From Calothrix sp. PCC 7103 (lineage in GTDB: Bacteria > Cyanobacteriota > Cyanobacteriia > Cyanobacteriales > Nostocaceae), in assembly GCA_000331305.1 (NCBI GenBank), contig KB217478.1, forward strand, positions 64,544 to 112,543: a DNA stretch of 48,000 nucleotides, read 5' to 3'. A program made the position numbers and the translations under genes. Positions 20,739 through 46,120 of this stretch are shown piece after piece (the first letter of the stretch is position 1; every line of letters begins with the position of its first letter). Below the pieces are notes generated by a model. It ran no database searches and was not told the origin of the DNA. It worked only from the letters and a program-made list of their open reading frames with translations.

Positions 20739-20758
20739 AAAGCTTAAATAATCTACAA

Positions 20759-26947: not shown

Positions 26948-26968
26948 CGTACCTAGACTGGAGACGTA
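26948..26968. promoter_or_regulatory. conserved box CGTAC-N-GACTGGAGACGTA, copy 2 (upstream of the T4SS operon, divergent from the HTH gene)
   Basis: cgtacctagactggagacgta lies about 85-100 nt upstream of the start codon at 26866, with TAAAAAT immediately to its left on the plus strand. Confidence 0.4.
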
Positions 26969-27484: not shown

Positions 27485-27607
27485 GGACCTAGAAGTTGTC
27501 GTAAAGCGCTAGTTTGAGGTGCCAATATAAAGTGCGTGTACTTATCCTAAGCATTATTGAAACCAGACCATTAATTTTAATAGCCACAAGCAATAGAAAT
27601 ATTTACA

Positions 27608-27730
27608 GGACTTACGCAAAAATTTTGTCATGCTTCACTGCGTTCAGCATCTCAGAGATTCTACCCTTCGGGAAAACTTCGTTTACACTGCGTTCAGAAT
27701 GACAGTTTTTCGTTAAAATGCGTAAGTCCT
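27608..27730. mobile_element. MITE-like element with 12-bp perfect terminal inverted repeats
   Basis: AGGACTTACGCA at 27608-27619 and its reverse complement TGCGTAAGTCCT at 27719-27730. Subterminal TGTCAT/ATGACA and an internal direct repeat CACTGCGTTCAG x2. No coding capacity. Confidence 0.5.
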
Positions 27731-28017
27731 AAGTTAGACTGTATCTCGGCTCAACCTCTTCTCGACTGGCGCCGAAAGAATTTCTAGACTACGCATCATA
27801 AAATGAAGTGTTGGTGCCGTGCGCCTAAATATTTTTCCTATTTTTTCAAAACCTGCGTAAAAACTCCCGGTCTGATTCGTACAAGGGTTTAGAGAAGTAA
27901 AGGAGTTAGACATTATGCTTTGATAAACAAGCGATAGTCTGACTATCTAATTAACTCCAAATATGCCGAGCGCTAAATATAGCCATCACTTATCAATTCT
28001 AAACACTACTCATATTT

Positions 28018-29052
28018 ATGATACATCAATCAGTAGCAAGCTGTATTGGACAAACTCCACTCGTTCAATTAAATCGCTTATTTCCTTACAAGGGAATCAA
28101 TGTTATCGCCAAACTAGAATTTTTAAATCCAGGTGGTAGCGTCAAAGACCGTCCCGCGCGCTTTATTGTTGAACAAGGATTACAAAATGGAACTATTGAT
28201 CAAAAAACCCACCTAATTGAAAGTACTTCTGGCAATTTAGGTATCGCTTTAGCAATGGTAGCAAAAGTCTATAACCTGCAATTCACCTGTGTAGTAGACC
28301 CAAAAATTTCGGCAACGAATTTGCAAATACTCCACTTGTTAGGAGCAAATATTGAGATGGTTCATGTGCGTGATGACCAAGGTGGCTATCTCAAATCTAG
28401 AATTCAACGGGTTCAAGAACTATTGCACGATATCCCCCAAAGTCTCTGGATTAACCAATATGCCAACGATTTGAACTGGCAGGCACATTACTACGGCACG
28501 GGTAGCGAAATGGTTGCAAGCCTTGATGGTTCTATCGACTGTCTCATCCTCCCTGTTAGCACTACAGGAACAATGTTGGGAATTTCCCGCCGTCTGCGCT
28601 CAGAATTTCCAGGGCTTAGGGTAATTGCCGTTGATGCCGTAGGTTCTGTCATTTTTGGGACACCTTCAGGACAACGAGAGATACCTGGTATTGGGGCTAG
28701 TCGAGTACCCGAACTTAGTAAGCAGATTGAGGTTGATGAGGTTATCTACGTTAATGACTGGGAGTCTGCACAGGGTTGCCGCGCTCTGGTCAAATATGAA
28801 GGCATCTTTGCTGGTGGTTCTTCTGGGTCTGTAATCGCCGCTATTCAAAAACTTCTTCCCAGTGTGCCTTCTCCTTATCGCATCCTGACTCTTTTCCCCG
28901 ACCGAGGAGAACGCTATCTAAATATGGTCTACGACGACAACTGGGTTGGACAGCTACATCATTCAGATGCACAACCCAATTTATCCACTTTTACCACTAA
29001 GCTGCCCACGTTCAACAAAGCTGAACTCAAAAACCTAAATCTATTGACTTAA
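28018..29052 (+). CDS. sbnA: SbnA-type PLP-dependent enzyme (2,3-diaminopropionate biosynthesis, N-(2-amino-2-carboxyethyl)-L-glutamate synthase)
   Basis: PLP-lysine motif NPGGSVKDRPA plus blocks I recall as SbnA-specific: HLIESTSGNLGIALAM, TCVVDPKISATNL, WINQYANDLNWQAHY, PGIGASRVPE, YEGIFAGGSSGSVIAAI. It is paired with an SbnB-like gene. Confidence 0.8.
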   Translation: MIHQSVASCIGQTPLVQLNRLFPYKGINVIAKLEFLNPGGSVKDRPARFIVEQGLQNGTIDQKTHLIESTSGNLGIALAMVAKVYNLQFTCVVDPKISATNLQILHLLGANIEMVHVRDDQGGYLKSRIQRVQELLHDIPQSLWINQYANDLNWQAHYYGTGSEMVASLDGSIDCLILPVSTTGTMLGISRRLRSEFPGLRVIAVDAVGSVIFGTPSGQREIPGIGASRVPELSKQIEVDEVIYVNDWESAQGCRALVKYEGIFAGGSSGSVIAAIQKLLPSVPSPYRILTLFPDRGERYLNMVYDDNWVGQLHHSDAQPNLSTFTTKLPTFNKAELKNLNLLT

Positions 29053-29061
29053 AAGAGAAAT

Positions 29062-30097
29062 ATGCAACAACATCACTCTACCGCCAAAATACCAACAATT
29101 CTCTACCTGAGCAAATCTGACATTATCCAACTTGGTGGAAATTCCTCTCATCTATATATAGAAGCTGTCAATCATGCTCTGACTCTCCATGCTAAAGGCG
29201 AAATTGTCCAGCCACTCAAGCCTTATTTACGTTGGCGTGGAAATGAAAACCATATTGCTGACCGAATTATTGCGATGCCAGCTTATCTAGGTGGCGAGAG
29301 TTCTATAGCTGGTTTGAAATGGGTTGGGAGCAAGCATGATAACCCATCTCGATCTGGTTTGGAACGAGCCAGCGCGCTCATTGTTCTGAATGATACTCAG
29401 ACTCATTACCCTCTCGCGATTATGGAAGGAAGCCTGATTAGTGGTATGCGAACAGCGGCAGTTACCGCAGTCGCAACTCGCCACTTAGCTCGAAAAAATT
29501 TTAGTGATGTCACATGCATTGGCTGCGGTCCAATTGCTCGGATGCAACTGCTGACACTAATTGAGCAATTTCCATCCATTACTACCATCCACCTTTTTGA
29601 CCTTAACCCCTTTGCAGCAAAGAATTTAGTGGAAACTTTGCACCAATCCTTCCCTGATTTGAAATATCAAATTGCTTCAGATGCCCAAAAAGCTGTGCGT
29701 CAAGGCGAGGTAGTAATCACTTGTACGGTCGCAGATAAACCCTATAAGTAGGTACGACTGGCTGCAAAAAGGAACTTTCCTCAGCAATGTTTCGATTATG
29801 GATGTACATAAAGAGGTTTTCCTCAATGCTGACAAGGTAATAGTGGATGATTGGGAACAATCAAACCGAGAGAAAAAAGTGATTAATCAATTGGTTTTAG
29901 AAGGACGCTTCTCGCGCGAGCAACTCCATGCAGAACTGGGTGAGATACTTCTTGGTCGTAAACCTGGTCGAGAGTCAGATGAAGAAATTATCCTCCTCAA
30001 TCCAATGGGAATGGCAATTGAAGACATAGCTTGTGCCCAAAGCATTTATCAAAAAGCTGTTGCAAAACAAGTTGGCATCCGCTTAAACCTCGGTTGA
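29062..30097 (+). pseudogene. sbnB: SbnB-type ornithine-cyclodeaminase-family dehydrogenase, split by a frameshift at ~29746-29752
   Basis: ORF 29062..29751 ends ...VITCTVADKPYK*. The +1 frame continues ..ISRYDWLQKGTFLSNVSIMDVHKEVF.. into ORF 29798..30097. Together they span a full-length SbnB-like protein (HIADRIIAMP, KWVGSKHDNP, LLNPMGMAIEDI). Confidence 0.75.
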
Positions 30098-30270
30098 TAA
30101 GGAACATTGACAAGGCGTTGCACAAAACAGGGCTTTTGTTTTGGACGGGTAAAGCAAAATTCATAAAATAAACTGAAAAGCATACATAAGAATAATTGAA
30201 ATGGTACTCACAATGCTAGTCTGCAAGCAAACATATTTTGTCCAAAGTCCAATCAAAAAGATTTTAGCAG

Positions 30271-33200
30271 TTATTCTATTAGAACAAAATCAGAAATGAT
30301 AGTTTCAGGATATCGAACTAACTGCTCAATAATTACTTCATAACTCTTCAAAAAGCGCTCTATCATCTCAGCAGTAAAAGTTGTTGTGCTGTAACAAGCA
30401 TGAAATTTGATCGCCTGGGTTGTTTCATTAGGATAATCAGCATAAAGCTCCAGAGGGACATCTTGCTCACTCCAGAGACCACGATCGGAGCTAATAGTTA
30501 ATTCCTCACACTTGAGTATTTGACCCAACCAATTTTTTGCTGGAACTAATACAAAGGTAACAGTTCGCAGGATTTTTAGCTTGTTTTCCACTGGTTCCCA
30601 AATTTTTTCTGAGGGAATTGCATAGGTTAGTCCCTCAGTAACAGTTTTTCTAACCTGTCCTAGCAAAGAAATAGCCGTCTGGTTGCAGTTTAATTGAATA
30701 CCTAGTGGCAAATCACTAATGAAACAACCGAGTAATCGTTCGATTTCCAGTATACTGCGATTAGCTATTGTGCCGACTACTAGGATATCTGTTTGTTTGC
30801 TCCATTTGTGCAACAGAATGTTTAGTGCCGTTAGCAGGACGATAAAAGGTGTGACACTACAAGCGTGGCTGAGGGAAGCGATATTGTTGGTCAAACTTAC
30901 AGGCAGTGAGAAATGATATTCGTTAGCAAAAGACCTATCTGGTGTAGACTGGATTGCAGGAAAAAGATCGAGGGAGGTGGGAAAGTTCGCTAGGTGCTGT
31001 TGCCAGTAGGGTAAGTGGGCTGACAAAACTTCCTCACTAAAATTTTTGCGCTGCCAGATCGCAAAATCTGCATATTGGAGAGGTAGTTCTGGCAGAGGTG
31101 AAGGTTTACCTACCAAGAAGTTACTGTAGATGATTTCGAGTTCTTGTAATAAAATGCCACAAGACCAACCATCGGTGATAATATGATGCATGGCAATAAG
31201 TAGCCAATGCTCCTCCTCGGACAATTGAATCAAGATAGTTTTGATAGGAGGTGCGACCGTCAGGTCAAATTCGCGATTCATCGCCTCTCTGAAAATTCTG
31301 TATGCCTCAGCTTCTTTGCTCATCTGCGAACAGAGATACTGTAGATCGATGAACTGAAACGGTAGGGTAAAAGATGGTGCAATTTTCTGGGTGGGCTGCT
31401 CTTTAACAATAGGAAAGGTTGTTCGCAGAATTTCGTGACGACGGATAATTTCGTTGAGACTCCGCTCTAATACTGTGCGAGAAAGCGTACCTGTCAAACG
31501 TAGAGCCATTGAACTATTAGCTGCACACTTACCAGCAAATTTATGCTCTAAACACCATATATAATCTTGAGCAAAAGAGAGTGGGATAACCTGGGTTCTC
31601 GCTTGAGGCGACACTGCTGGTATCTTTCTAAATGAATAACCTTGCGTATTAATGGTGAGGGTAGAATCGATCAATTGACTTAAAGCGGCGATTGTTGGTA
31701 ATTGAAACAGACAACTGAGGGGTAAGTTAATCTCGAATTTTTCGCAAATCCGAGAAATAATTTGAACCGCTAGTAACGAATGACCGCCCAACTCAAAGAA
31801 GTTATTGTAAATGCCTACTTTTTTAAGTGCTAATACCGAAGCCCAAATGCTCGCTAGTATCTCCTCAACCGGAGTGCGGGGAGCGACAAAATTAAGTTCG
31901 AGTTCAGGTTGGTATTTTGGGGCTGGTAGAGCGCGGCGGTCTACTTTACCATTTGGTGTCAGCGGTAAGGCATTGAGTGTTACAAAAGCACTTGGCACCA
32001 TATAATCTGGCAGTTGCTCTTTCAAGAAATCGCGTAAATCGCTTATTATATTAGCTAGTTCTTTATTAGGGACGATATAAGCTATTAATTGTTTGCTGCC
32101 TACAATATTTTCTCTTACGATGACTACAGTTTCTTTTACGGCTGAGTGTTTAGCCAGTAAAGATTCAATCTCACCCAGTTCTATACGGAAACCGCGAATT
32201 TTGACCTGATTGTCAATTCGACCTAGAAACTCAATGTTACCATCCGGTAAGTAACGCACTAAGTCGCCAGTTTTATAAAGGCGAGAACCAGACTTTTGAT
32301 TAAAAGGATTGGGAATAAATTTTTCAGCAGTCAAATCAGGAAGATTAAGATAGCCGCGCGCTAGTCCATCACCACCAATATACAGTTCTCCTGAAACGCC
32401 GATGGGTACAGGCTGCAATTTTTTATCTAGCACGTAAGCCTGCGTGTTAGCAATGGGGCGCCCAACGGGGACATTATCTTCTACGTGGTTAAAATCTGTG
32501 ATTGTGTAGCAGCAAGTAAAAGTTGTGTTCTCCGTTGGACCATAACCATTGATTAGAGTACACCCTTTCAGTTCTTGAAGAGCCTTCTTTACATGAGGAA
32601 CAGATAAGACATCCCCACCAGCTAGAAGTTGACGCACATTTTTTAAGCTTTCAAGCTGCTCATCTACCATTAGGTGAAATAAACCTGCTGTAAGCCACAG
32701 TGTCGTTATCTGGTATTGTACAAGAGCTTGTCCCAACTCTTGCAAAGATGGTTTGTGTGAGGGCATAATCACTAGCAACCCACCGTTGAGGAGGCTGCCC
32801 CAAATCTCAAAAGTTGAGGCATCAAAAGATATGGGAGCAAGCTGAAGGAAAATTTCTTCTGCACCGAAATTTGCATAGTTGGTTGCTTTGACTAACCGCA
32901 CTACGCCCCTATGCATGATGGCTACTCCCTTGGGCTTCCCTGTTGACCCGGAAGTGTAAATGAGATAAGCCAGATTATTGAATGCCGTTTTACTATAAGG
33001 ATTTTCCTCGCTATGTTGGGCAACCTCTTCCCAGTCGGAATCCAAGCAGATAATGCGTTCCGAGCATTGGGGAAGTTTCTCCATTAACTGGGTCTGGGTT
33101 AGCAACACTTGCACTTTTGAGTCTTTTAGCATGAAAGCCAAGCGCTTAGAGGGATATTCTGGGTCAAGCGGAACGTAGGCGCCGCCAGCTTTGAGAATAC

Positions 33201-36200
33201 CAAGCAATCCCACCACCATTTCCAACGAACGCTCTACGCAAATACCTACCAAAACTTCTGGTTCAACGCCTATTGCTTGTAGATAATGCGCCAGCTGATT
33301 CGCTTTTGCATTCAATTCTCGGTAGGTTAGTTGCTCACCCTCAAATACTACAGCTATTGCGTCAGGCGTTAGTTCCACCTGCTCCTCAAACAACTGATGG
33401 ATATACTTATCCTGGGGATATTGTGTTTGAGTATTGTTCCATTCCACCAACAATTGCTGCCGCTCGGCTTCTGTAAGCATTGGCAATTCAGAAATTTGCG
33501 CTTTAGGATTAGTAACAATTCCTGACAATAATGTTCGGAAATGTTCTATCATCCTTGAGATAGTGCTAGCATCAAATAAATCTGTATTATACTCCAAGCG
33601 ACCAATAATGCCCTCTAGTCTAGAGTCGAGTTCGAGGGTTATATCGAACTTTGCTGTATCAGTTTGGATATCCAACTGACTTATCGTCCAGTCCACACTT
33701 AAAGATGGCACTGGGGGTTCCAAAACAAATGCCACCTGGAACAGAGGGTTGTGGCTTAGGTTTCGTTCCGGTTGGAGTGTTTCTACTAGCTTTTGGTAAG
33801 GCAAGTCTTCATGGGCATAAGCTTCTAAAGTTACCGAACGCACCCGAGAAAGTAGCTGTTGAAAACTAGGGGAACCTGAAAGATCGGTACGCAAAACCAA
33901 AGTGTTTAGGAAATACCCCATTAGCTTTTCAATCTCTGGTCGATTGCGTCCCGCGCTGACGGTGCCTACAACAATATCATCTTGCCCAGTGTAGCGGTAG
34001 AGCAAAGTTTTAAATGCTGCTAGCAACGTCATATAGAGTGTGACCCCCTCCTGCTGTGAGAGAGTTTTTAGTGCCTCTGTCAGGTTTTTGGATAGCGCGA
34101 AACAAAGTCTTGCGCCCCGAAAAGTTTGTTTTACTCTTCGGGGGCGGTCGTAAGGCAACTGTAATATGGACAAGTCAGTTAACTGTTGCTTCCAGTAGTT
34201 AAGCTGACTTTGAAGAATTTCTTTTGTAAACCACTGCCTTTGCCAACTAGTAAAATCCGCGTACTGTATGGGTAGTTCTGTAAGTGGCGAGGGTTTGGCT
34301 CTAGAGAAAGCTTCGTAGAGTGTTGCAAGTTCTGGAAGAAACACGCTGTAGAGTGAAACACCATCAATTATAATGTGGTGAAAGGTTAAGAATAGCCTGT
34401 AATCCTCGTCCGCTAGCCGCATCAAGGTTGCTCGTAGCAATGAGCTAGAACTTAGGTCAAACGCCTGCTTTGCTTCCCTAGTTGCCAACCGCAAAGCTTC
34501 TGACTCTCGTCTGTCTTGTGGAAATTGCCGTAAATCCACCACTGCTAGATTGAAAGTAGTGGGTGAATCTATAACCTGAACTGGTTGTCCATCAACCGTG
34601 ATAAAGCGTGATCGCAGACTTTCGTGACGCTGAATAATTTTGTTAAGAGCTTTTTCTAAGGCGGTTACGTCAATAGCACCCCCTAAGCGAATAGTAAAAG
34701 GTTCATTATAAACAGGGGTATCGGGTTGCAATTGTGCAAGGAACCACAGTTGCTCTTGTCCCCATGAAAGAGGCAAGTTTTGGTTTCTGGAAACTCTTTG
34801 GATAGAGGAAGCAAAATTTTTTTTGTTTTCCCAATCAACTGCCTCTATGCTCGTGGCTAATTTGGCTATAGTTAGGGATGCAAACAGGCTATCCACAGAT
34901 AACTTTACCTGTAAAGTGTCATACAACCTGCTTATGATTTGAACTGCTAGTAAGGATTGTCCACCCAACTCCAAAAAATTGTCGTGGATACCAATTTGCC
35001 CAAGTCCTAGCACTTCGTTCCAAATTCTTACCAACACTTTCTCAATCGTGGTACGAGGTGCAACAAAATTTTCTAGCCGTTCGAGTCTTTTTATATCAGG
35101 TGCTGGTAGTGTGAGCCGATCTACTTTTCCATTAGGCGTTAACGGTAAAGCATCAAGCAGTACAAAATAAGAAGGCACCATGTAATCGGGCAGTTTTCCT
35201 TGTAAAAAGCTGCGGATATGGGGTATCAGCTTTTGAACAACGTACCCCTCCAACTCTTTTTGTGCTAATGTTGCTAAGTTTTCTGTATTTCCAACAACAT
35301 ATGCCACTAAGCGTTTGTCGTCCGGTATATCAGAACAGACTGTAACAACAGCATCCAGCACGTTAGGATGTTGCCTCAGTACTGCCTCAATTTCGCCTAA
35401 TTCGATACGAAAACCGCGAATTTTGACTTGATTGTCAATACGACCTAAGAACTCAATGTTACCATCGCGATTGTAGCGTGCTAAGTCTCCAGTTTTATAC
35501 AGGTGCCCATCAGATAAATTACTGAAGGGGTTGGGGATAAATTTTTCATTGGTTAAATCAGGACGGTTCAGGTAGCCGCGCGCTAGCCCATCACCACCAA
35601 TGTATAATTCTCCTAGAACGCCAACGGTTACAGGCTGCAACTTTTCGTCTAACAAGTAAACTTGCGTGTTGGCTATAGGGCGACCAATGGGGACATAATC
35701 TTCTACGTGGTTAAAATCTGTGATTGTGTAGCAGCAAGTAAAAGTTGTATTCTCGGTTGGACCATAACCATTGATTAGAGTACATCCTTTTAGTTCTTGA
35801 AGAGCCTTCTTGACATGAGGAACAGATAAGACATCGCCCCCAGCTAGAAGTTGACGCACATTTTTTAAGCTTTCAAGCTGCTCATCTACCATCAGGTGAA
35901 ACAAACCTGCTGTAAGCCACAGTGTCGTTATCTTGTATTGTATGAGAGCTTGTCCCAACTCTTGCAAAGATGGCTTATGTGGGGGCATAACCACTAACAG
36001 TCCACCATTGAGAAGGCTGCCCCAAATCTCAAAAGTTGAGGCATCAAAAGATATGGGAGCAAGCTGGAGGAAAATTTCTTCTGCACCGAAGTTGGCATAG
36101 TTGGTTGCTTTAACTAACCGCACTACCCCTCTATGCATGATGCTTACACCTTTGGGCTTACCCGTCGAGCCTGATGTATACATCACGTAAGCTAAGTTAT

Positions 36201-36753: not shown

Positions 36754-37231
36754 TAAATTAAGTGTAAGTTTAATTTATAAAATAAAGTTGCAAGAGAGTA
36801 TATTAGGTTTTATTTATCTAATAAAACCCTGTTGATAATTACTATGAGTAGAGCAGTAGCTATCGTTCCTTTGGATTCAAGTTATTGTTACAACATACGT
36901 TTACCTCGCTGGTTATTTTTTGCTGAAATAGCACTGTCAAATAAGCGTCTCTTCCTGTAGTTTGGGGTACAGGGCACGCTTGTAGCTAATCCCAAAGCGC
37001 AAACACAATTTTCTTTGAGTTTTGCACTGAGAACTAGTTTAAACTCCAGTAGGTTAAGTAATGGTCATTTCTATGTTGGTCATTGATTAACTTAATGTAG
37101 CTGTTTTGCCTTGTGGAATAGTGTAGTCATTGGGGTGTATGTATTAGTACTTAACTACCAATGACTCTAAACAGGATTTTGGGCAAAATCCTTACACAAC
37201 GAGCTTTTAAGTCTCAGTATATTTTTAAAAC

Positions 37232-37435
37232 TCAAACCGGATTCCTATATATTGTAGTGTGATACTTTATACTTATAATTTTCTTAGTTACTGATTTTGT
37301 TTCTCCTACAGGTATATCTGTGTCTCCTTTCTGAAAATTAAGGACAATGGACTTATCCGCGTTATTGGTGAATGGAGTCTGAGTAGGTTTCACTGTTCTA
37401 TCAGTTGGGGTATCTGTATAGATTATTTTACTCAT
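37232..37435 (-). CDS. small hypothetical protein (67 aa)
   Basis: ORF only, upstream of the NRPS on the same strand. Thr/Lys-rich with no recognised motif (not MbtH-like). Confidence 0.25.
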   Translation of the reverse strand: MSKIIYTDTPTDRTVKPTQTPFTNNADKSIVLNFQKGDTDIPVGETKSVTKKIISIKYHTTIYRNPV

Positions 37436-37576
37436 ACTGGTTGCTGCTTTTTAGTTCAAGTTAAATTTCGGTTAAATATCCGATTGATACATAAATTTAT
37501 TTGCATTTTTGATGCTATGCATTCAAGGCAAGAGGCCGCCATTGGCGACCGTCTACACATCTATATGATTATAGTT

Positions 37577-38194
37577 TTATGCTGCAATTTGGTTTTGAGT
37601 TTCAAAGCTGTAACCATCACTTGGATTCCCTGTAAGTACCACTGTCAGCTTTTTCAAACCTTCTAGAGAAATTTCAGTAAAATTATCGCTCATTACAGCA
37701 GAACTGATAATGTCACCCTCTTCATATTCAGAAGTTATTCCAAAATATATCTTAGGGTGAAAAACAAATTCTGCTTTTTGATTTTTACCAACTTGCTCCT
37801 TCCTAGCAATTACTTTTTTATCCTTCAGGGCAATTACACAAATACCTCCGTCAGTGCTAACCTTGTTAAGCACATCAAATTCGTTAGTGGTTTTGTTTGT
37901 ACCCGTTTGTTTCAAACTAAAACCTCCAGGAGTGTCTTCAAGCGCATAGTTTTTACCATTTTCTACACTTATAGGCAAAGTTCCGCTGCTACCATTATCC
38001 CATGTTACTTGAGCCTCGGTATCAATAGTGTATTTAAACTTATGCCAAGAATTGTATCCAACGTTTTTTATTACCTGCCATGCAGTGGAGTAAGCAGAAA
38101 AATTTGATTCTGCTTGTTGCATGAATACCACTATTTCAGGGCGATCGTTATCATCGGACTGGTTGAGGAATGTAATTTCTACATCAATAGACAT
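37577..38194 (-). CDS. 205-aa protein of unknown function, paralogue 1
   Basis: The internal ATG at 38194 is preceded by AAGGAAG and gives exactly 205 aa, the same length as 39622..40239. Shared blocks: STAWQVIKN(V/I)GYN(S/C)WHKF, N(E/Q)FDV(L/I)N, KA(E/V)FVF(H/N)PK(I/L)YF, SEYE.G.II, FTEI.L. Confidence 0.6.
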   Translation of the reverse strand: MSIDVEITFLNQSDDNDRPEIVVFMQQAESNFSAYSTAWQVIKNVGYNSWHKFKYTIDTEAQVTWDNGSSGTLPISVENGKNYALEDTPGGFSLKQTGTNKTTNEFDVLNKVSTDGGICVIALKDKKVIARKEQVGKNQKAEFVFHPKIYFGITSEYEEGDIISSAVMSDNFTEISLEGLKKLTVVLTGNPSDGYSFETQNQIAA

Positions 38195-38841
38195 TGATTT
38201 ATCTTCCTTAAAGTTATTGGAGTTTTTTGTTCTAAAGGTAAGGGTTGTAGATAATATTGCTTGAATTACAAAAATATATTCAGATTTGGAATTTATCAAT
38301 ATATTTAGAGATAAGTTAATCCAATCTATCTATAATCTAAATCTAGCTCAAGCATAAATTATCTTTTTTCTACTTACAGCAGCCATTTTGTACAAGTTGC
38401 TGTAGGTCTTTTGCCCCTTTTAGTAGCTTTGGAAAGCAAAACAGAAACTAAAAGGTTAGCAAGCTGAAAAAATGTCCGTGAATAAATTTAGGCATTTAAC
38501 AAGGACACCTTTTCTTTTTGTGCTGTGCATGTCGAAAAGATTTATCTGCTTACCTGTATCATTTTTATTCTTAATAACACGCTCCCAACACCGAGTAATC
38601 ACTGAAATATTTAGTTTACTTGTAGCAGAGTATTTACGGAGCATCTACTAATTTTTGTTTTTTTTACTAAGTAAATATATTTAAATAGCGATAATATCCG
38701 TTTAGAACTAAGTCAAGTAGGAGGCATGTATAGAAGGAGAAAATATTTGATTTCACTTTAAGTAGGTGGGCAAAAATAAAGCACACTGGTTTTGTTCTGC
38801 TTAAAAGCGCTAAAGTCAAACTGTGAGAGGATTACAGCAGT

Positions 38842-38859
38842 TTTACATTTCGTTACATA
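38842..38859 (+). promoter_or_regulatory. HLR1-type (RpaB-box) motif 1 with conserved downstream promoter-like segment
   Basis: TTTACATT-TC-GTTACATA is a perfect match to (G/T)TTACA(T/A)(T/A)-N2-(G/T)TTACA(T/A)(T/A). It is followed by TTCCATTTACCTACTTATATACAAA. Confidence 0.5.
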
Positions 38860-39116
38860 GTGGTAAATTTTTCCATTTACCTACTTATATACAAAGTTAT
38901 ATGTCCAATGTTAGATATTGTTTCGTGATTGCAATGCCTAACCCTGAATACAAGCAATAAGCTCCTGATACTTCGTCAGCATATTTACGTATAACTGAGG
39001 TTTAGCCTCTTTTATAAGTAGTTGGACGCAATTAAGTAAGTTGGCATTAAAAATCACAACTGTGTTTAGTTTTGTAAGTAAGCTAAAACCCAGCCAAATT
39101 AGGCTTTTACTTTAAG

Positions 39117-39134
39117 TTTACATTCTGTTACATA
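39117..39134 (+). promoter_or_regulatory. HLR1-type (RpaB-box) motif 2 with conserved downstream promoter-like segment
   Basis: TTTACATT-CT-GTTACATA is a perfect HLR1 match. It is followed by TTCCACTCACCTACCTAATTACAAA and lies 275 bp downstream of motif 1. Confidence 0.5.
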
Positions 39135-39621
39135 GTTTAGTTTATTTCCACTCACCTACCTAATTACAAAAATCTGAGATAGGATTCCTGCCAAACAAAG
39201 AAACAGTATAAAATTAATCTGGTATGTTTAATTAACTTAATAATCGTGTAATATTGATTTAACAAACTACATATAGGCAAATTGCTAGTATCCATATTTC
39301 GGGCAAATGTATGTGTACTAGTCCTGTCACTTTTTAGGTCTAGTTCCGAAATTAAGGTTAAGCCCGCATCTGATGTTACAATTTAACCAGTAAAATTAAC
39401 TATGACTGGACATAATTTAACTTGTTCAAATTTAAACTGTTTTGGTATAGAGTGTATTGTGCTGGGGGTCATAGTCTAAAGTATTAAAATTTTTCTGCAA
39501 TATATATTCTAGCAGTTTTTGACCCCTCTTTTCTCAGATTTTATGATAAATCCGGGATATACCCTTGCATATTTTATCGTAACTTTCTTAAAACATAAAA
39601 CTGAATTTTTATCAGTAATTT

Positions 39622-40239
39622 CTATAGATTATTGTAACAAGTCATAAATTTATAACCTTTGGCTTCATTACCTCGAAGAGTAATTGATAAACTTGAACCC
39701 TTAATTAAATCAATTTCTGTAAATATTGTGCTGTTGAGAGGTAGGCAAATAATTTTACCGATTTCATATTCAGAGCAAATTGCAAAATATAATTTTGGAT
39801 TGAATACGAATACTGCTTTTTGCTTACTAGCAATCTGATGTTGTACTTGAATTGGATTACTACCCTTAAGAACTATAACAGAAATATTTTCCGACATACT
39901 AATATTATTAATAACATCAAACTGATTAGAACCATTATTATATTTTGTTTGCACTAAAGACAAATTTCCATTATTTTTTTCAAAAGAATAGCTTGCACCT
40001 AACATAATATTCTTGCTTAAAATTTCAGTTTTACCATTGTTACTCCATAGAATTAAAACCGAGATTTTAAGAGGATATACAAACTTGTGCCAACAGTTAT
40101 AACCTATATTTTTTATTACCTGCCATGCGGTTGAGCTTGCAGAGAAAGGTAATGTAGAAGGCTGCATATAAATAAGAATAGTTGAGTTATTTTGGTAATG
40201 AGACTTATTAACGTATGTGATTTTAATATCAGTATGCAT
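39622..40239 (-). CDS. 205-aa protein of unknown function, paralogue 2
   Basis: Collinear similarity to 37577..38194 (roughly 35-40% identity by eye) and identical length. More AT-rich and Asn/Ile-rich. Confidence 0.6.
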   Translation of the reverse strand: MHTDIKITYVNKSHYQNNSTILIYMQPSTLPFSASSTAWQVIKNIGYNCWHKFVYPLKISVLILWSNNGKTEILSKNIMLGASYSFEKNNGNLSLVQTKYNNGSNQFDVINNISMSENISVIVLKGSNPIQVQHQIASKQKAVFVFNPKLYFAICSEYEIGKIICLPLNSTIFTEIDLIKGSSLSITLRGNEAKGYKFMTCYNNL

Positions 40240-40603
40240 AATAGTTATTGATTATCTTTGTATTCACTCTATGCTAGTTGGAACTAAAACATGCTAAAAT
40301 AGCGGTTAATATTGCATAAATTATATTTGTAAATTACAGATGAGATGGGAGATTTTACTTTATACTACCAAAGTGTAAACCTTTATTACATGAAGATTTG
40401 TAAAAATTATATATAGCAGTCTTAAATCATTCGTAAAGAAGAAAACAAGCTGAAATGCTTGTACATAACTTTCGACCTACGTATTTTTTACACTTTGACT
40501 AGGGTTGTAATCTTACGATAAAGTGTCAGATTAGTATATGGGTTCGCGCATTTATATATAGTCTCAAATCTTGAAATTGCTGAAAGTCTTGTCAAAAGCT
40601 AAT

Positions 40604-40634
40604 TTTACATTGTAGGCTGTGTCTACAATGTAAA
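40604..40634. repeat. perfect 12-bp inverted repeat with 7-nt loop upstream of paralogue 2
   Basis: TTTACATTGTAG-gctgtgt-CTACAATGTAAA. It contains the same TTTACATT word as the HLR1 half-sites, but in inverted arrangement. Confidence 0.4.
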
Positions 40635-41593
40635 TAATTAGGAGCATTTAATAATTCAAGTACAAACCAAAAACCCTATGAAGCTGGCTTTTGGGCATAG
40701 TAGTAAAAACTCTGATAGCTTGTGCTAAAATTATAACTTACCAAAATTGTCAAATTTCTGCGTACATTAAATAAACTGCTTTGATTAAACAGTTAAAAAA
40801 TACACGACACCACAAAACTCAATGTTTCTCTAAATCTGGCTCTTCTTCTAGAGGAAGGTAGCGTTGAATTGTACTAATTACTCTCAATTCTGCAATATCT
40901 TCTGGCTTCCAGGTGTCATAAAGTGCAAGATGAATGCCCTCACTACGTCTTCCTACTTGTCCATTTAGAGCAGAACAGTTTAGCAATTCATAAGTACCAA
41001 ACAAAACCTGTACTGTACCAGTCAGGTTAGCAATTTATTTAATTCAGTTCATTTGTTGTAGCATTTGGTGTCCACCAGATACTTCATCAATGTAAAATTA
41101 CTCATTTTCAGTAAAACTACTGAACCAGTTAGCAAGTAGCTAGATTTAAACTGACTAGTTGAAGGCTGGCGGCGCTTGCAACTCTGTTGAAATAGCACTA
41201 ACTGCCCCAAGTGAATATTTATCTGAGTAATCAGACATCGAATCAAAGGAAAGCAATTCAAGTATTATCGGCTGTAAACTAGGCGATGGTTAGTTGCTGG
41301 TGCGTTGAGGCAACGAACGGTGTGTGAAAGGCAGCCTGCACCTATTTTGGCTAGGGCACAATTTGATGAAGAAATTGGAAGTTGGGGGAATTCCTGTCTG
41401 GCGGTGTTCTGGATGCAACAACAACCCCTTGTGGGTAAAGGATGGGGAGAATTTCTGCTACCGTCCCGTGTTCCTCCTTTGTATCGTTTTTCCTATTTTC
41501 AATTCTTTGTCAAGAATCTGTGGGGATGATGATGTGGGTTTGTTTCTTTTGAGTCAAACTTCCTCAAATCAAGTAAAATAAGGAGCTGAAAAG

Positions 41594-41950
41594 ATGTTAA
41601 AAATTTTAAAAAGGTTGGTAAGGTTAACTGTAGTTACCGGAATTTCCATCATGGTACTGGTTCTTAGTTTTGGAAACCCAGCTAATGCAGCTGACTATCA
41701 TGGTGGAGGAGTAACGCGCGACGGACAGAAGACGGCGGACACAGTGGATGTACTAGTGCTTACCCCAGGAGAATTTACCAAACAAATATGTAACACGGGT
41801 AGTAATGGAATATTGACACTCAAAGCACCGCCATCCGGGACGAATTACACTCAAGGAACTATTTTGCAATACGCAGCAACAGGCGGACTACGCTGCAAAC
41901 TAACTGTCACCAAAATGATAGGACCATCAAAATATAACGTGACAACGTGA
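41594..41950 (+). CDS. small secreted protein (118 aa), unknown function
   Basis: Sec-type signal peptide (LTVVTGISIMVLVLSFGNPANA/ADY) and a GGAG Shine-Dalgarno 8 nt upstream of the ATG. Confidence 0.55.
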   Translation: MLKILKRLVRLTVVTGISIMVLVLSFGNPANAADYHGGGVTRDGQKTADTVDVLVLTPGEFTKQICNTGSNGILTLKAPPSGTNYTQGTILQYAATGGLRCKLTVTKMIGPSKYNVTT

Positions 41951-42873
41951 CAAGTAGCGAAATTTAATTGGCTGATGAAGCCAGAAAAAGAGCAGGGAAG
42001 AAACGATAACTAGACACCCCTCTCCTCACTTATCTCCACCAATGGCGAGCTTACTCCCCAATGCGACTCACCGTCGCACCTAGCTCATAAAGCCAAGGGA
42101 ACCAGCTAGCACTTTTGCGATAATGTCCCCATACTGAAGTTTTAGTGAATCCCTTGGACAAATTCCTCCTTACAATATATCGAAAGTCATTAAACAAATA
42201 ATGCCATCTTTAATACTTCCTTTGATATTTCCCCAACTGAATGTGTAGCGGGCTTTCATCAAGTGGATTCCCCTTGATGCGATCGCCCAAAGGAAATCAT
42301 GACTAACTTTTCCCACCCTCGTCTTCTAAGCAACTTGCCAACCGGAGCCTAGCTACTGCAATTTTAACCAACCGCGCCACAGTACCTGCAACATCGGTGT
42401 TGTGCAGTTACAGGTAATTTTCAACATTAAGCGCGATAAATTTGATTATATTCTAATCGTTAATTCAGTTATCTCCGGTTTCCAGATTAATACCAAAATT
42501 TTGCAAAACTACTATCATATCAACTGAAATAATAAGATAATTAATGATTGAAAAAATGGCTTTGCGAGTAGCTAAATCTAGACCAGAACTATTTAATAGT
42601 CGATTTTTATTAATACTTAATTAGGCAATCTATTAAAAAAAATAACAGATTGAAAAGCTAAATTTGTTATAAAGCCGAGTTGATGGAAATTTTTACACTT
42701 CCAATTGGAAAGAGCGTTGTTGTAAATAAATGAAATAAGTTTTTAAGTAATTGCTGATTTTGAGCAGAAAACAAATGTTTGCTTAATTCCATAGCACTTG
42801 TAAAATTAAAATTGAAAAATTTATCAACTTATCATCGTTAAGCTCGTCTAGTTTTAATTATGGGGATTTCCCC

Positions 42874-42894
42874 GTTCCTCGTTCCCTGTTCCCT
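42874..42894. repeat. heptamer tandem repeat GTTCC(T/C)(C/T) x3 just downstream of the ABC exporter stop
   Basis: gttcctc gttccct gttccct is preceded by the small hairpin ggggatttcccc. It resembles the STRR style of cyanobacterial heptamer repeats, but the unit is not one of the named STRR1-3. Confidence 0.4.
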
Positions 42895-42896
42895 CT

Positions 42897-45617
42897 TTAA
42901 TTAACTAAAGTTTCTGTCTTGAACTTGCTCTGCTTCGCCATTAACTTAGCAAACAATCCCTCTTGGTTAGCTAATTCCTCAAACGTACCTTGCTGCACAA
43001 CTCTACCCGCTTCAATCACATAAATCCGGTCAGCATTACGAATCGTACTCAAACGGTGAGCAATGGCAATCCTTGTTACCTTCAACCGTTCCATACTCTG
43101 ACTCACCATTGCCTGTGTCTTATTATCCAGCGCGCTCGTCGCCTCATCAAACAAAATAATCCTCGGTTTCAACACCAACGCGCGTGCAATTAATAACCGT
43201 TGTCTTTGTCCCCCCGATAAATTCATCCCACCTTCAGAAATTACCGTATGCATTCCCATTGGCATATTTTCCACATCATCGGCAAACCCAGCCATTCTTG
43301 CAGCATCCCAAGCTTCCTCCATACTAATTAAGGCGCCACCACTAATATTTTCAAACACAGTTTCGCTATTAATACGCCCATTTTGCAACACCACTCCTAA
43401 CTGGCGCCGTACAGCAGAAACATCCAACCCAGCTAAATCTTGCCCATCATAGTACACCGTTCCCTGTTCTGGAATATCAAATCCCAACAGCATCCGGTAA
43501 ATAGTAGACTTACCACTACCACTTGGACCTACCAGCGCAATAAACTCTCCTGGTTTTGCCTCGATAGTCACATCATCCAAATTTAGCGGCCCATCAGTGC
43601 GGTAGCGAAACGTTACGTGGTCGAGCTTAACATACCCAGAAAGGCGCCCTGGATCAGCTTGATTTAAATTAATTTCTGGTTCTGTTTCTAAAATTGGCTT
43701 GGCATGTAACCACAACGCAGTAATATCAAGTAAATCAACCAAATTATTACTCAAACTTGTAACACCAGCAATAAACGAAGCAAACGCCGCATTAAACGCT
43801 AAAAACGTACCAGTAGATAAACCACTCCCCGCTTGCTCGGTAGCTAGTAAACTAGAAGCAATCCAAAAAGTAATAATTGGCGTAAAGCTAGATTGCAACA
43901 AATTAAACGCAGCAATCCAATCTTCAATTTGCTGGGTGCCCTGCATTAATTTAAGCTGCTTATGATAAAATCTTGCCCAGTGAGCATAAGCTCGACCCTC
44001 TGCGGCTGTAGTGCGGAGTTTAGAAATACCTCCAATTAGCTGAATTGTCATCCCAGCTATCTCACCATCTAACTCTTCTAATGGCAATGCTTTCTGACTT
44101 TTAAAATATCCAGCAACATTCGTCACCAACACAGTTAAAATCACAACAGCAACAGCAACCCACGCTAATTGCGAACTATAAACAAACAGCAAACCTAAAT
44201 TAAATAAAGCAAAGAAACTGCTGAATAACATATCCAGCCTTTCACCACCTAATTTATCCCGGATGCGGTTAATTGCAGAAACGCGCGATAATATTTCTCC
44301 AGCAGAATATTCTCGGAAAAAAGTCAGCGGCAACTTCAGCAACCTGTCCCATATCCCAGCTTGCAAGTTGAAGACAGAGTAAGATTCCAACCGTACTAAA
44401 GCTAATCCTTGTGTTAATCGAAACAAAGACGTACCAAAAGTAGCTGCCAGTAATGCCAAAGTAAGTTGCAGCAGCAAACCTCTATCAGCATCAGGAATAG
44501 CAGTATCAATCAAAACACCAGTAACTTGGGGAACAATCATCCCAATCAAAGTCCCTGGTATACCCAAAAACAACATCGTCCGTAGTTCCTTGCCTCCCCC
44601 ACGCATCGAATACCGGAATACATTTAGTAAATTCAGTTTTGCATCCGGGAAAGGAGGATAAAACATATACGCACCCGGCGCCAGCAATTTAGCAGTACGT
44701 TCATTGACTTGAGTCCGCTTTTGCGTAACAGGATTGTAAATCTCATAATACTTATTATTTACAGGCAACAACGCCACAGGAGTTTGGTCAGCTAAATATC
44801 CTAACAACGGTCCACAATCTGCCCTAAACCAGCGTTCAGAAAGCAATACACGCCTAATTCGCATTCGTGAAGCGCGCGCAATTGCTTCGAGAGGGTCTTT
44901 CACCCGCTTCATATCTTCCGACCTTGCAGGTGGACGAATGGGAATACCCATAGCTTTTCCAACGGCGCCAGCAGCTACTAACAAAGGGTCGCCAGTTGCA
45001 GCAATTGATAACTGCTGGGTTCCTAACAGCGAAACAAAATCAGTAACTGCTGTTGTCGTCAACTGCTGATTTAAACGTTCGCGCGCTTGAAACTGCACTA
45101 AATTTTGCTGTTGTGCAGACTGTTCAAGTTCATGCAAGCTCGAAATAAAGCCTTGCTGGAAATTCTTGAGAACAACACGCACTGTTTGCCAGGGCATTTG
45201 ACTCGAAATTTCAGGCGCCGGGAAAGGTATGGCTGTTAACTCAAATACCGAACTCAATCGCTCAAACCAAGTTATTATTAAATGAATACTGTTAAAAGAA
45301 CTTGTTGTTACATTTGCTTGGGTGGCGCCTTCATCTAACGAGCGTAAATTTAACTGTAATAAGCGAGTTTCTTTTGTGGCAACAGCCAAAATACAAGTGG
45401 AACCTAACCCTACTTCAATTCCAAACACTGCTTCCCCTGTCTCTACTCCAAATAAATAACGCCGCCCGCTTTGTAATACTGCATCTTGTATTTTCCCTGC
45501 ATACACAGTCATTGACCCAGACTCTATCACCCATAAACTTTCTGGATCATCTAATAGTAATACTTCATTTTCTGCGATGATTTTAAAGGAATTTTGTGTG
45601 TCAGATTTAATATTCAT
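42897..45617 (-). CDS. ABC exporter, fused cNMP-binding-like N-domain + degenerate peptidase-like domain + TMD + NBD (NHLP-bacteriocin-type permease/ATPase subunit)
   Basis: N-terminal beta-roll-like region (LLLDDPESLWVIESGSMTVYAGK...RRYLFGVETGEAVFG), six-helix TMD, Walker A GPSGSGKST, signature LSGGQRQRL, Walker B ILFDEATSALD. The NHLP-family assignment rests on architecture and the adjacent second exporter. Confidence 0.8.
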   Translation of the reverse strand: MNIKSDTQNSFKIIAENEVLLLDDPESLWVIESGSMTVYAGKIQDAVLQSGRRYLFGVETGEAVFGIEVGLGSTCILAVATKETRLLQLNLRSLDEGATQANVTTSSFNSIHLIITWFERLSSVFELTAIPFPAPEISSQMPWQTVRVVLKNFQQGFISSLHELEQSAQQQNLVQFQARERLNQQLTTTAVTDFVSLLGTQQLSIAATGDPLLVAAGAVGKAMGIPIRPPARSEDMKRVKDPLEAIARASRMRIRRVLLSERWFRADCGPLLGYLADQTPVALLPVNNKYYEIYNPVTQKRTQVNERTAKLLAPGAYMFYPPFPDAKLNLLNVFRYSMRGGGKELRTMLFLGIPGTLIGMIVPQVTGVLIDTAIPDADRGLLLQLTLALLAATFGTSLFRLTQGLALVRLESYSVFNLQAGIWDRLLKLPLTFFREYSAGEILSRVSAINRIRDKLGGERLDMLFSSFFALFNLGLLFVYSSQLAWVAVAVVILTVLVTNVAGYFKSQKALPLEELDGEIAGMTIQLIGGISKLRTTAAEGRAYAHWARFYHKQLKLMQGTQQIEDWIAAFNLLQSSFTPIITFWIASSLLATEQAGSGLSTGTFLAFNAAFASFIAGVTSLSNNLVDLLDITALWLHAKPILETEPEINLNQADPGRLSGYVKLDHVTFRYRTDGPLNLDDVTIEAKPGEFIALVGPSGSGKSTIYRMLLGFDIPEQGTVYYDGQDLAGLDVSAVRRQLGVVLQNGRINSETVFENISGGALISMEEAWDAARMAGFADDVENMPMGMHTVISEGGMNLSGGQRQRLLIARALVLKPRIILFDEATSALDNKTQAMVSQSMERLKVTRIAIAHRLSTIRNADRIYVIEAGRVVQQGTFEELANQEGLFAKLMAKQSKFKTETLVN

Positions 45618-46120
45618 GTTTATATTGGTGTATTGAACCGCAAAGGCGCAAAGGAAGAGGGGGAAAGTGTAGATGCAATTTTTTAAACTAACTACTATAA
45701 TGTCATTTTGCCCAGAAAGCTTTGTAAACTAACACCAGCAATGAAGAAATTTGATTATGGGAAGTGGCGCCTGTGTTGAGATTATTATGTATTTTCAGCT
45801 ACGTTCCTACCCGCATAGTATTTAAGTACTATGCTAATAGCAGAAGTCCTCTTAAGAGGACTAAATATACTGCAAACGGGTAAAATTTGAACTTATGTCA
45901 TGCTGAGGTACGTAAACGCAGTTTGGAAGCAAGCTTTAGACGATGAAAGTACTTATGTAATAGAAGTTGCCCAGAAAGCGATTAATGATTTGCAGCAATT
46001 TGAAAGTTTACTGGAAGCTCGTTAATAGCTAGCGATGTAACCGTTTAAGGGGCGCCTGCCGCTAACGAACTTCGCTTAGAAAATTTGTTAGGTAGTTATG
46101 GGCAATAGCTGCTACCAGAT

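What the first reader, a model, noticed from the sequence alone, without database searches (positions are those of the whole stretch)
27774..43331. 15.6-kb island almost devoid of GGCGCC: the sbnAB-NRPS-paralogue region looks recently acquired
Seen: GGCGCC density is 61 sites in 1-27773 (about one per 450 bp) and 11 sites in 43332-48000 (about one per 425 bp). There are only 2 sites (32457 and 33178, both in NRPS domain A2) in the 15.6 kb between 27774 and 43331.
The depleted stretch contains sbnA, the frameshifted sbnB, the NRPS, the two 205-aa paralogues, the HLR1 modules and the small secreted protein. It also contains the window's only canonical HIP1 site (42279-42286).
The left edge coincides with an excisionase-like HTH gene (27221-27484) and a MITE-like element (27608-27730).
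Inference: the island came by horizontal transfer from a donor lacking the GGCGCC bias, possibly a HIP1-type cyanobacterium, and has not yet ameliorated. The palindrome can therefore serve as a molecular clock and boundary marker.
Basis: partly seen in the sequence, partly recalled or inferred. Interest (0 to 1): 0.75.

Follow-up and report, generated by a model that had tools for sequence, protein, structure and literature searches.

The report
Recently acquired DNA lacking host palindrome
A 15-kb patchwork of imported genes next to an integrated conjugative element in a Calothrix-type cyanobacterium has not yet picked up GGCGCC, the palindrome this lineage stamps all over its resident DNA; this is a clear but expected example of a known way to spot foreign DNA.

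Summary
GGCGCC occurs 74 times in the window, against about 3 expected. There are 61 sites in 1-27773, 2 in 27774-43331 and 11 in 43332-48000. The two gaps in the island (4.7 and 10.2 kb) far exceed the longest gap (2.2 kb) in 81 kb of host-type DNA.

The host is almost certainly Calothrix sp. PCC 7103. Elhai (2015) already described GGCGCC as the palindrome that replaces HIP1 in that genome.

Four GGCGCC-rich relatives share the flanks at 90-96% identity but lack the island. They are Dulcicalothrix desertica PCC 7102, Calothrix NIES-4071 and two metagenome contigs. Homology breaks at 27475-27597 on the left and about 42900 on the right.

The island is a mosaic:
- a MITE-like element;
- an sbnA-sbnB cassette (sbnB frameshifted) that is 97% identical to a copy in a different context elsewhere;
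- an orphan two-module NRPS;
- IS remnants;
- two rare paralogues.

It also departs from the host's extreme GATC/CGATC avoidance and has higher GC3. Later acquisition is therefore well supported. A direct donor rich in HIP1 is only weakly supported, because the island holds 1 HIP1 site where about 10 would be expected. The palindrome works as a boundary marker to within about 0.2-0.45 kb, but as a clock it is slow and uncalibrated. HIP scarcity as a sign of foreign origin was published in 2011, so this is a new example of a known kind.

The parts
1..27597 (.). GGCGCC-rich integrated conjugative backbone, resident in this lineage for a long time. It carries a relaxase (3448-4518), T4CP (6901-8700), a TrbI-like gene (17292-18887), a VirB4-like gene (21659-23758, truncated) and IS630 (23798-24835).
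   Evidence: Pfam matches. 60 GGCGCC sites and 1 GATC. 92-96% nt identity to L070 and L082 up to 27475-27479 and to L071 up to 27597. 15 GGCGCC sites are shared in register with D. desertica.
27221..27484 (+). Small conserved gene (87 aa) that ends the backbone.
   Evidence: No Pfam match, even at E<=5. Homologues of 90% or more in D. desertica and NIES-4071. Three relatives lose homology just after its stop codon.
27598..27733 (.). MITE-like inverted-repeat element sitting exactly at the left junction.
   Evidence: Perfect 12-nt terminal inverted repeats at 27607-27618 and 27719-27730. Fold z-score -2.8. Homology to NIES-4071 stops at 27597.
27821..30172 (+). sbnA-sbnB cassette for 2,3-diaminopropionate synthesis. 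sbnA is 28018-29052. sbnB is a pseudogene split into 29062-29751 and 29798-30097.
   Evidence: PALP and OCD_Mu_crystall matches. 97.2% nt identity to L069 over exactly this span, where sbnB is intact and the right-hand neighbour is a Haem_oxygenas_2 gene. 0 GGCGCC sites.
30153..30252 (.). Fragment resembling an IS end, at the joint between the sbnAB cassette and the NRPS.
   Evidence: 77% identity to L071 1405-1503, which lies just upstream of a DDE_5 transposase gene. Weak evidence; no match in plasmids.
30271..36753 (-). Orphan two-module NRPS (A-T-C-A-T-C) with near-duplicate adenylation domains. It holds the only 2 GGCGCC sites of the island.
   Evidence: Pfam. Best non-self homologue is only 56% identical. 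Both sites have one-off counterparts in the A1 domain. 2 sites against 15.6 expected.
36754..42896 (.). AT-rich tail of the island, made of mixed debris. It holds paralogues at 37577-38299(-) and 39622-40239(-), an IS1380 end remnant at 39327-39570, a gene fragment at 40823-41076, a small secreted protein at 41594-41950(+) and a lone HIP1 at 42279-42286.
   Evidence: ORFs. Paralogy. Matches to IS1380 and to a plasmid gene fragment in Nostoc plasmids. The paralogue family has only 6 members in the database. 0 GGCGCC sites.
42897..48000 (-). Native GGCGCC-rich right flank: two ABC exporters (42897-45617 and 46655-47998).
   Evidence: Pfam. 93.5-94.5% nt identity to L073, ending at the ABC gene's 3' end, about 42900-42931. 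11 GGCGCC sites.

Best explanation
The window comes from a GGCGCC-type cyanobacterium, almost certainly Calothrix sp. PCC 7103. In this lineage a methylation-linked mutation and repair bias slowly writes GGCGCC into all resident DNA. The same lineage purges GATC and CGATCG.

The stretch 27598 to about 42900 lies in the variable zone between the end of an integrated, now defective conjugative element and two native ABC-exporter genes. It is a later-assembled patchwork of imported pieces joined at transposable-element debris:
- a MITE-like element;
- a truncated sbnAB cassette;
- an NRPS;
- rare paralogues;
- IS1380 and other remnants.

These pieces arrived from the Nostocales mobile gene pool, probably on HIP-poor plasmids or other mobile elements rather than from a HIP1-rich chromosome. 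They have been in the lineage too briefly for GGCGCC to accumulate.

Shown: the deficit itself, the absence of the island from relatives at both junctions, the mosaic structure, and the second GATC/CGATC anomaly. Inferred: the mechanism of GGCGCC gain (Elhai's model), the type of donor, and the timing.
For: 1. GGCGCC is a property of the host lineage, not of this element.
- Elhai 2015 (PMC4390886) describes GGCGCC as the HIP of PCC 7103.
- The D. desertica, NIES-4071 and metagenome relatives have 1.3-1.9 sites/kb and almost no HIP1.
- The window's NRPS maps at 100% to an 8.79-Mb NCBI contig, and its IS630 clusters with a PCC 7103 protein.

2. The same backbone genes take on the host's palindrome. 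In the HIP1-type contig L091 the VirB4-like homologue (86% aa) carries HIP1 sites and no GGCGCC. Here it carries 5 GGCGCC and no HIP1.

3. The island is absent from relatives. The left flank homology stops at 27475-27597 in L070, L082 and L071, and L070 and L071 share downstream sequence that the window lacks. The right flank homology to L073 stops at about 42900. No fetched relative contains island DNA.

4. Codon-level signature. 71% (34/48) of Gly-Ala dipeptides in flank genes are written GGCGCC, against 1/8 in the island (Fisher P=0.003). The ratio of GGCGCC to GGTGCC/GGCACC is 72:7 in the flanks and 2:6 in the island (P=8e-5).

5. An independent marker. There is 1 GATC in 27.5 kb of backbone and 13 in the island. 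CGATC occurs 15 times in the island against 1.3 expected from host-type DNA (P=1.5e-11). This matches Elhai's report that PCC 7103 has the most extreme GATC and CGATCG depletion.

6. Mosaic and mobile character.
- The sbnAB block is 97% identical to L069, which has different neighbours.
- Cassette relatives sit on Mob/Tn3/integrase elements, or inside an 8.5-kb HIP1-free hole in a HIP1-type genome.
- IS1380 and a gene fragment resemble sequences on Nostoc plasmids.
- sbnB is a pseudogene.

7. GC3 is 0.38 in the island against 0.29-0.34 in the flanks. RSCU correlation with the backbone is 0.77, against 0.92 within the backbone.
Against: - No att-like direct repeats, tRNA gene or integrase bound the island. 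No relative shows a clean 'empty site' joining the 87-aa gene to the ABC genes, so this is a replacement or variable zone, not a proven single insertion.
- Tetranucleotide usage with the HIPs masked is not distinguishable from the flanks on these short pieces.
- Gly and Ala codon preferences are otherwise host-like.
- GGCC avoidance is shared by the island and the flanks.
- GATC density in the island (0.84/kb) is only a third of that in typical Nostocales and close to the right flank (0.59/kb). Some amelioration, or a GATC-poor donor, has to be assumed.
- The source genome itself could not be retrieved, so there is no genome-wide distribution of GGCGCC-free windows.
Confidence: 0.8

Rival explanations
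1. Direct, very recent transfer of the whole 15 kb as one unit from the chromosome of a HIP1-rich cyanobacterium.
For: One intact HIP1 at 42279 and one one-off variant (GCGATCGT) at 38141. 12 of 13 GATC sites lie in a CGATC or GATCG context. The closest SbnA and paralogue homologues are in HIP1-type Nostocales.
Against: About 10 HIP1 sites are expected at the 0.67/kb seen in L068, but 1 is found; HIP1 one-off variants number only 3. The HIP1 site of L068's sbnA is GTAATCGC here, and 7 of L068's 8 GATC sites in sbnAB are absent. The island is a mosaic, and only 2.35 kb is shared with L069. The NRPS has no relative above 56% identity.
Confidence: 0.12
2. The segment is native and old, but is shielded from, or selected against, GGCGCC formation. 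Possible causes are local chromatin or transcription state, or a site-specific cost.
For: Delaye et al. 2011 (PMC3025956) note that some native genes, such as rDNA and ribosomal protein genes, lack HIP1 through selection. Codon preferences are broadly host-like.
Against: The segment is absent from four related loci at both junctions. It contains pseudogenes and IS debris, which are hardly under selection. It also deviates in GATC/CGATC content and in GC3. The deficit covers coding and non-coding parts on both strands.
Confidence: 0.05
3. Acquisition from a non-cyanobacterial donor such as Bacillota or Actinomycetota, where sbnAB-type cassettes are common.
For: The scan of GTDB species representatives returned only non-cyanobacterial SbnA hits, with 66% identity or less.
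Against: The larger protein database shows closer relatives in Nostocales at 79-86% identity, some named Nostoc, Brasilonema or Rivularia. GC (0.39-0.44), GGCC avoidance and the IS1380 remnants are all typical of Nostocales.
Confidence: 0.02
4. Assembly chimera or contaminant DNA joined into the contig.
For: The source record could not be inspected.
Against: An independent Logan assembly of run SRR610348 reproduces 27686-32505 at 100% identity, including part of the MITE, the GGCGCC at 27768, sbnAB and the NRPS 3' end. Host-type DNA lies on both sides within one contig.
Confidence: 0.01

Closest known systems
HIP1-poor genomic islands of Synechococcus elongatus PCC 7942 (Delaye et al. 2011, BMC Genomics 12:25; PMC3025956)
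   Same: Scarcity of the host's highly iterated palindrome, relative to length, is used as a signal of recent foreign origin, on the reasoning that HIPs form in situ by mutation. It is combined with codon usage and comparative evidence.
   Different: Here the palindrome is GGCGCC, not GCGATCGC. The host is a filamentous Nostocales strain. The island abuts a conjugative element and is a mosaic. A second marker (relief from GATC/CGATC avoidance) agrees with the first.
GGCGCC as the replacement HIP of Calothrix PCC 7103 / D253 (Elhai 2015, Life 5:921; PMC4390886)
   Same: Same hexamer, same density range (1-2 per kb), near absence of HIP1, and extreme depletion of GATC and CGATCG. All are reproduced in the window flanks and in three relatives.
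   Different: As far as I read that paper, it treats the genome as a whole and does not map GGCGCC-free islands. This window adds D. desertica PCC 7102, NIES-4071 and several metagenome contigs as further GGCGCC-type genomes.
Staphyloferrin-B-type SbnA/SbnB 2,3-diaminopropionate cassette feeding an NRPS
   Same: A PALP-family SbnA and an OCD-family SbnB lie adjacent to each other and next to an NRPS.
   Different: sbnB is frameshifted. Relatives show the cassette's usual partners, a Haem_oxygenas_2 enzyme and a permease, which are missing here. The NRPS is convergent and joined through IS-like debris, so a functional pathway is doubtful.

Membership tests
Horizontally acquired genomic island | Compositional signature deviates from that of the host | tested here: met
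   GGCGCC 2 against 34.5 expected. CGATC 15 against 1.3 expected. GC3 0.38 against 0.29-0.34. Masked tetranucleotide usage is not discriminating.
Horizontally acquired genomic island | Absent from close relatives that share the flanking DNA | tested here: met
   L070, L071 and L082 share the left flank, and L073 shares the right flank. None contains island DNA. No single relative spans both flanks.
Horizontally acquired genomic island | Association with mobility functions | tested here: met
   The island abuts a conjugative backbone. A MITE-like element sits at the junction. IS1380 and other IS remnants lie inside it.
Horizontally acquired genomic island | Flanking direct repeats, a tRNA target, or an integrase of its own | tested here: not met
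   No convincing flanking repeats. No tRNA genes in the window. No integrase domain in the island ORFs.
GGCGCC-type HIP genome (Elhai 2015) | GGCGCC grossly over-represented, at about 1-2 per kb | tested here: met
   74 observed against 3.2 expected. 2.2-2.4/kb in the flanks and 1.6/kb in L070 and L071.
GGCGCC-type HIP genome (Elhai 2015) | HIP1 nearly absent, and GATC and CGATCG strongly depleted | tested here: met
   0 HIP1 and 4 GATC in 32.6 kb of flanks. 1 HIP1 in 81 kb of host-type DNA.
GGCGCC-type HIP genome (Elhai 2015) | Presence of GRCGYC-specific m5C methyltransferase(s) | not testable with these tools
   No methyltransferase gene lies in the window, and the source genome was not retrievable.
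Integrative conjugative element | Relaxase, coupling protein and T4SS ATPase/channel genes | tested here: met
   Relaxase, TrwB/TraG-type T4CP, TrbI-like and FtsK/HerA-like ATPase matches. Located on an 8.79-Mb contig.
Integrative conjugative element | Intact transfer genes and an integrase/excisionase | tested here: not met
   The VirB4-like gene is 699 aa here against about 950 aa in relatives, with IS630 at the break. No integrase or excisionase domain was detected in the window.
SbnA/SbnB L-2,3-diaminopropionate pathway | Intact PLP-dependent SbnA and NAD-dependent SbnB | tested here: not met
   SbnA is intact (PALP, 220 bits). SbnB is split into 229-aa and 99-aa ORFs by a 1-bp insertion, compared with the intact 344-aa protein in L069.

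The most novel reading that the evidence does not exclude
The island and the orthologous backbones together form a natural time series for how a highly iterated palindrome is written into DNA.
- Most lineage-specific differences between orthologous GGCGCC sites are T<->C changes at the internal, presumably methylated, cytosine (GGTGCC/GGCACC <-> GGCGCC).
- The naive island keeps these precursors at three times the flank density.
- GATC purging appears to run ahead of GGCGCC gain.

If this holds genome-wide, it would give direct comparative support for Elhai's model of methylation-directed, biased T:G repair, with two-speed amelioration, and against models in which HIPs are selected uptake or recombination signals.
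Probability: 0.3. Interest if true: 0.5.

Novelty: new member of a known kind. Interest (0 to 1): 0.3.

Why it matters
The result shows that the alternative palindrome GGCGCC behaves like HIP1: a slowly written, lineage-specific stamp. Homologous conjugation genes carry GGCGCC in one host lineage and HIP1 in another, while newly arrived cargo carries neither. This gives a cheap, alignment-free way to delimit recent acquisitions in Dulcicalothrix-type genomes, to within a few hundred bases. It also provides material for calibrating how fast such palindromes accumulate. The biosynthetic content (an orphan NRPS beside a broken sbnB) is probably decaying and is not a strong lead for natural products.

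Tried and rejected
- PLSDB megablast of 20-44 kb gave only two short NRPS or hypothetical-gene matches, so the window is not a known plasmid.
- The genome-contig scan with SbnA returned only non-cyanobacterial hits of 66% or less and not the source genome. This was misleading on its own and was corrected by the protein-database search.
- Exact look-ups of the source-genome proteins P0121 and P0258 failed, so no genome-wide baseline and no second ICE copy could be read.
- TETRA correlations on 5-10 kb pieces were too noisy to discriminate.
- A repeat search found no att-like direct repeats. There are no tRNA genes and no Rfam families.
- Pfam found nothing for the 87-aa 'excisionase-like' gene or for the small ORFs in 36.8-42.5 kb.
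- Blastn of the junction pieces 27485-28017 and 30098-30290 against plasmids found nothing.
- I considered that GGCGCC richness might belong to the conjugative element rather than the host. I rejected this because non-element DNA in L070, L071 and L073 is equally rich.
- I considered that all HTH-bearing metagenome loci share the backbone. Only L082, L091, L096 and L083 do.

Full report
**Observation.** GGCGCC occurs 74 times in the 48-kb window, against 3.2 +/- 1.8 in dinucleotide-preserving shuffles. At the flank rate 34.5 sites are expected in the middle stretch, and the Poisson P(<=2) is 6e-13. Across 81 kb of host-type DNA (the window flanks plus three related loci) the 139 inter-site gaps average 542 bp and never exceed 2197 bp. 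The island contains gaps of 4689 and 10154 bp. Low GC explains only the right third of the island, where GC is 0.30-0.37. The sbnAB+NRPS part has higher GC than the flanks, yet the NRPS has 2 sites where 15.6 are expected (P=2e-5).

**The host and what GGCGCC means there.** Elhai (2015, PMC4390886) reported that Calothrix sp. PCC 7103 lacks HIP1. Instead it has GGCGCC as by far the most over-represented hexamer among 97 cyanobacterial genomes. He also reported the most extreme GATC depletion, very low CGATCG, a deleted CGATCG methyltransferase and two GRCGYC methyltransferases. The window's NRPS is 100% identical to an NCBI protein on an 8.79-Mb contig, and its IS630 transposase clusters with a protein named from PCC 7103. 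The window is therefore chromosomal and almost certainly from that strain, although the record itself could not be fetched.

The left 27.5 kb is an integrated conjugative backbone with a relaxase, a coupling protein, and TrbI-like and VirB4-like genes. The right 5 kb encodes two ABC exporters.

**Relatives.**
- Dulcicalothrix desertica PCC 7102 (L070) has the same backbone, syntenic at 92-95% nt identity.
- An ENA metagenome contig (L082) has it at 93-96%.
- Calothrix sp. NIES-4071 (L071) has a degraded copy at 88-93%.

All three are GGCGCC-type, with 1.6 sites/kb and 0-1 HIP1. In all three, homology to the window stops just after the 87-aa gene, at 27475-27479 in L070 and L082 and at 27597 in L071. 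The MITE-like element (27598-27733) begins exactly there. L070 and L071 share downstream sequence with each other that the window lacks. Their downstream DNA has normal GGCGCC density.

On the right, the metagenome contig L073 matches the two ABC genes at 93.5-94.5% identity. Homology ends at the last codons of the 906-aa gene, about 42900-42931, and unrelated genes follow. No fetched relative contains any island DNA.

It is not met. The palindrome-defined edges (27774 and 43331) are 0.18 and 0.43 kb from the comparative junctions.

**The stamp is written in situ.** Between the window and D. desertica (9.1 kb aligned, about 93% identity), 15 GGCGCC sites are shared in register, 3 are window-only and 5 are desertica-only. 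Across all comparisons, about half of the lineage-specific differences are GGTGCC/GGCACC against GGCGCC.

In flank genes 37 of the 66 coding sites are in frame as GGC-GCC. 71% (34/48) of all Gly-Ala dipeptides are spelled that way, against 1 of 8 in the island (P=0.003). Gly-Ala is also 2.3 times more frequent per codon in the flanks. The ratio of GGCGCC to its transition precursor is 72:7 in the flanks and 2:6 in the island (P=8e-5).

A HIP1-type metagenome contig (L091) carries homologues of the same backbone genes, with the VirB4-like protein at 86% aa identity. Those genes hold HIP1 sites and no GGCGCC. Here the VirB4-like gene holds five GGCGCC and no HIP1. Resident mobile DNA therefore acquires whichever palindrome its host lineage writes. 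The backbone has been in the GGCGCC lineage for a long time, and the island has not.

**A second, independent marker.** GATC occurs once in 27.5 kb of backbone, 13 times in the island and 3 times in the right flank. CGATC occurs 15 times in the island, where host-type DNA predicts 1.3 (P=1.5e-11). Twelve of the island's 13 GATC sites lie in a CGATC or GATCG context, against 6 of 20 in host-type DNA (P=9e-4). This resembles HIP1-type Nostocales, where the figure is 48-76%.

Even so, island GATC density (0.84/kb) is a third of that in typical Nostocales (2.3-3.4/kb). Only one intact HIP1 is present, against about 10 expected at 0.67/kb. In sbnAB, 7 of the 8 GATC sites and the HIP1 site of the HIP1-type homologue L068 are absent, both here and in L069. 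The data fit an ultimate origin in the Nostocales gene pool. Either the DNA travelled on HIP-poor mobile elements, or GATC has been partly purged since arrival. Elhai notes a putative GATC restriction enzyme in PCC 7103. A direct transfer from a HIP1-rich chromosome fits poorly.

**The island is a mosaic.** The sbnAB block (27821-30172) is 97.2% identical to a Logan contig (L069). There sbnB is intact and the next gene is a Haem_oxygenas_2 enzyme, not an NRPS. More distant cassettes (76-82% nt) have the order sbnA-sbnB-Haem_oxygenas_2-permease. In one HIP1-type genome the cassette lies inside an 8.5-kb HIP1-free hole. In others it lies on HIP-free elements carrying Mob, Tn3 or integrase genes.

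At the sbnAB/NRPS joint lies a piece of about 100 bp resembling an IS end. The NRPS (A-T-C-A-T-C, with near-duplicate A domains) has no homologue above 56% identity. The AT-rich tail holds:
- two 44%-identical paralogues of a family with only six database members;
- an IS1380 end remnant and a gene fragment, both similar to sequences on Nostoc plasmids;
- an orphan secreted protein;
- the lone HIP1 site.

No att-like repeats, tRNA gene, integrase or Rfam family was found. GC3 (0.38 against 0.29-0.34) and RSCU (r=0.77 against 0.92 within the backbone) deviate moderately. Masked tetranucleotide usage is uninformative at this length.

**Timing.** Most backbone sites predate the PCC 7103 / PCC 7102 split, and only about 0.1-0.3 sites per kb changed on each branch. 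A 9-kb coding island with 2 sites (0.9 expected from composition) could therefore be nearly as old as that split. 'Recent' is relative, and the clock is slow and uncalibrated.

**Comparison with what is known.** Delaye et al. (2011, PMC3025956) explicitly used scarcity of HIP1 as a signal of recent foreign origin, arguing that HIPs form in situ. Elhai (2015) established GGCGCC as the HIP of this strain. The finding is thus a well-supported new instance of a known phenomenon, using the alternative palindrome. It has two modest additions: orthologous conjugation genes bear different HIPs in different hosts, and GATC and GGCGCC amelioration appear to proceed at different speeds.

**Verdict.** The finding is a new member of a known kind, with interest of about 0.3.

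Noticed in passing
window 21659-24875: IS630 (23798-24835) sits where relatives L070 and L082 have about 0.86 kb of backbone. The VirB4-like ATPase is 699 aa here against about 950 aa in relatives, so the conjugative element is probably transfer-defective.
   Followed up: partly
window 37577-38299(-) and 39622-40239(-); L079 10001-12969: The two 205-aa-type paralogues belong to a very small family: 6 proteins in a database of 5.8 billion, all apparently from Nostocales. In Nostoc sp. UIC 10607 the homologue lies directly upstream of a PatG-like subtilisin (S8 + PatG_D/PatG_C), which hints at a link to RiPPs or cyanobactins. Repeated TTTACA-N-GTTACA (HLR1-like) motifs lie at 38842 and 39117.
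   Followed up: partly
window 1-27500: The conjugative backbone has a single GATC in 27.5 kb (about 96 expected from base composition). This is even more depleted than other host-type DNA at 0.25-0.6/kb.
   Followed up: partly
window flank genes against island genes: Gly-Ala dipeptides are 2.3 times more frequent per codon in GGCGCC-rich genes than in the island (48/9139 against 8/3480, P=0.02). The palindrome drive therefore seems to alter protein sequence, not only synonymous sites.
   Followed up: partly
L077 8095-16575 (JGI metagenome contig, HIP1-type): An sbnA-sbnB-Haem_oxygenas_2-permease cassette lies in an 8.5-kb HIP1-free hole in a contig that is otherwise rich in HIP1. This is the mirror image of the window's GGCGCC-free island.
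   Followed up: partly
L091 1589-4813 against window 21659-25758: Homologous conjugation genes (VirB4-like at 86% aa) carry HIP1 sites in a HIP1-type host and GGCGCC sites in the window and its relatives.
   Followed up: partly
window 27480-27520 against L070 and L071: The window lacks about 105 bp that D. desertica and NIES-4071 both have between the stop codon of the 87-aa gene and the conserved GGTTTGAGGTGCC motif.
   Followed up: no
window 31800-33500 against 35022-36753: The two NRPS adenylation domains are internal duplicates (76% nt identity, with long identical peptide stretches). They probably activate the same or a similar substrate.
   Followed up: no
whole window: GGCC is almost absent everywhere (6 sites in 48 kb), in both the island and the flanks. 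This suggests a restriction avoidance shared across Nostocales donors and this host.
   Followed up: no
L136 1-8520 and L082 10745-12760: Downstream of the 87-aa gene in metagenome relatives lies a long gene made of tandem repeats of about 120 bp (TPR/CHAT-like). It is a different cargo again at the same junction.
   Followed up: no
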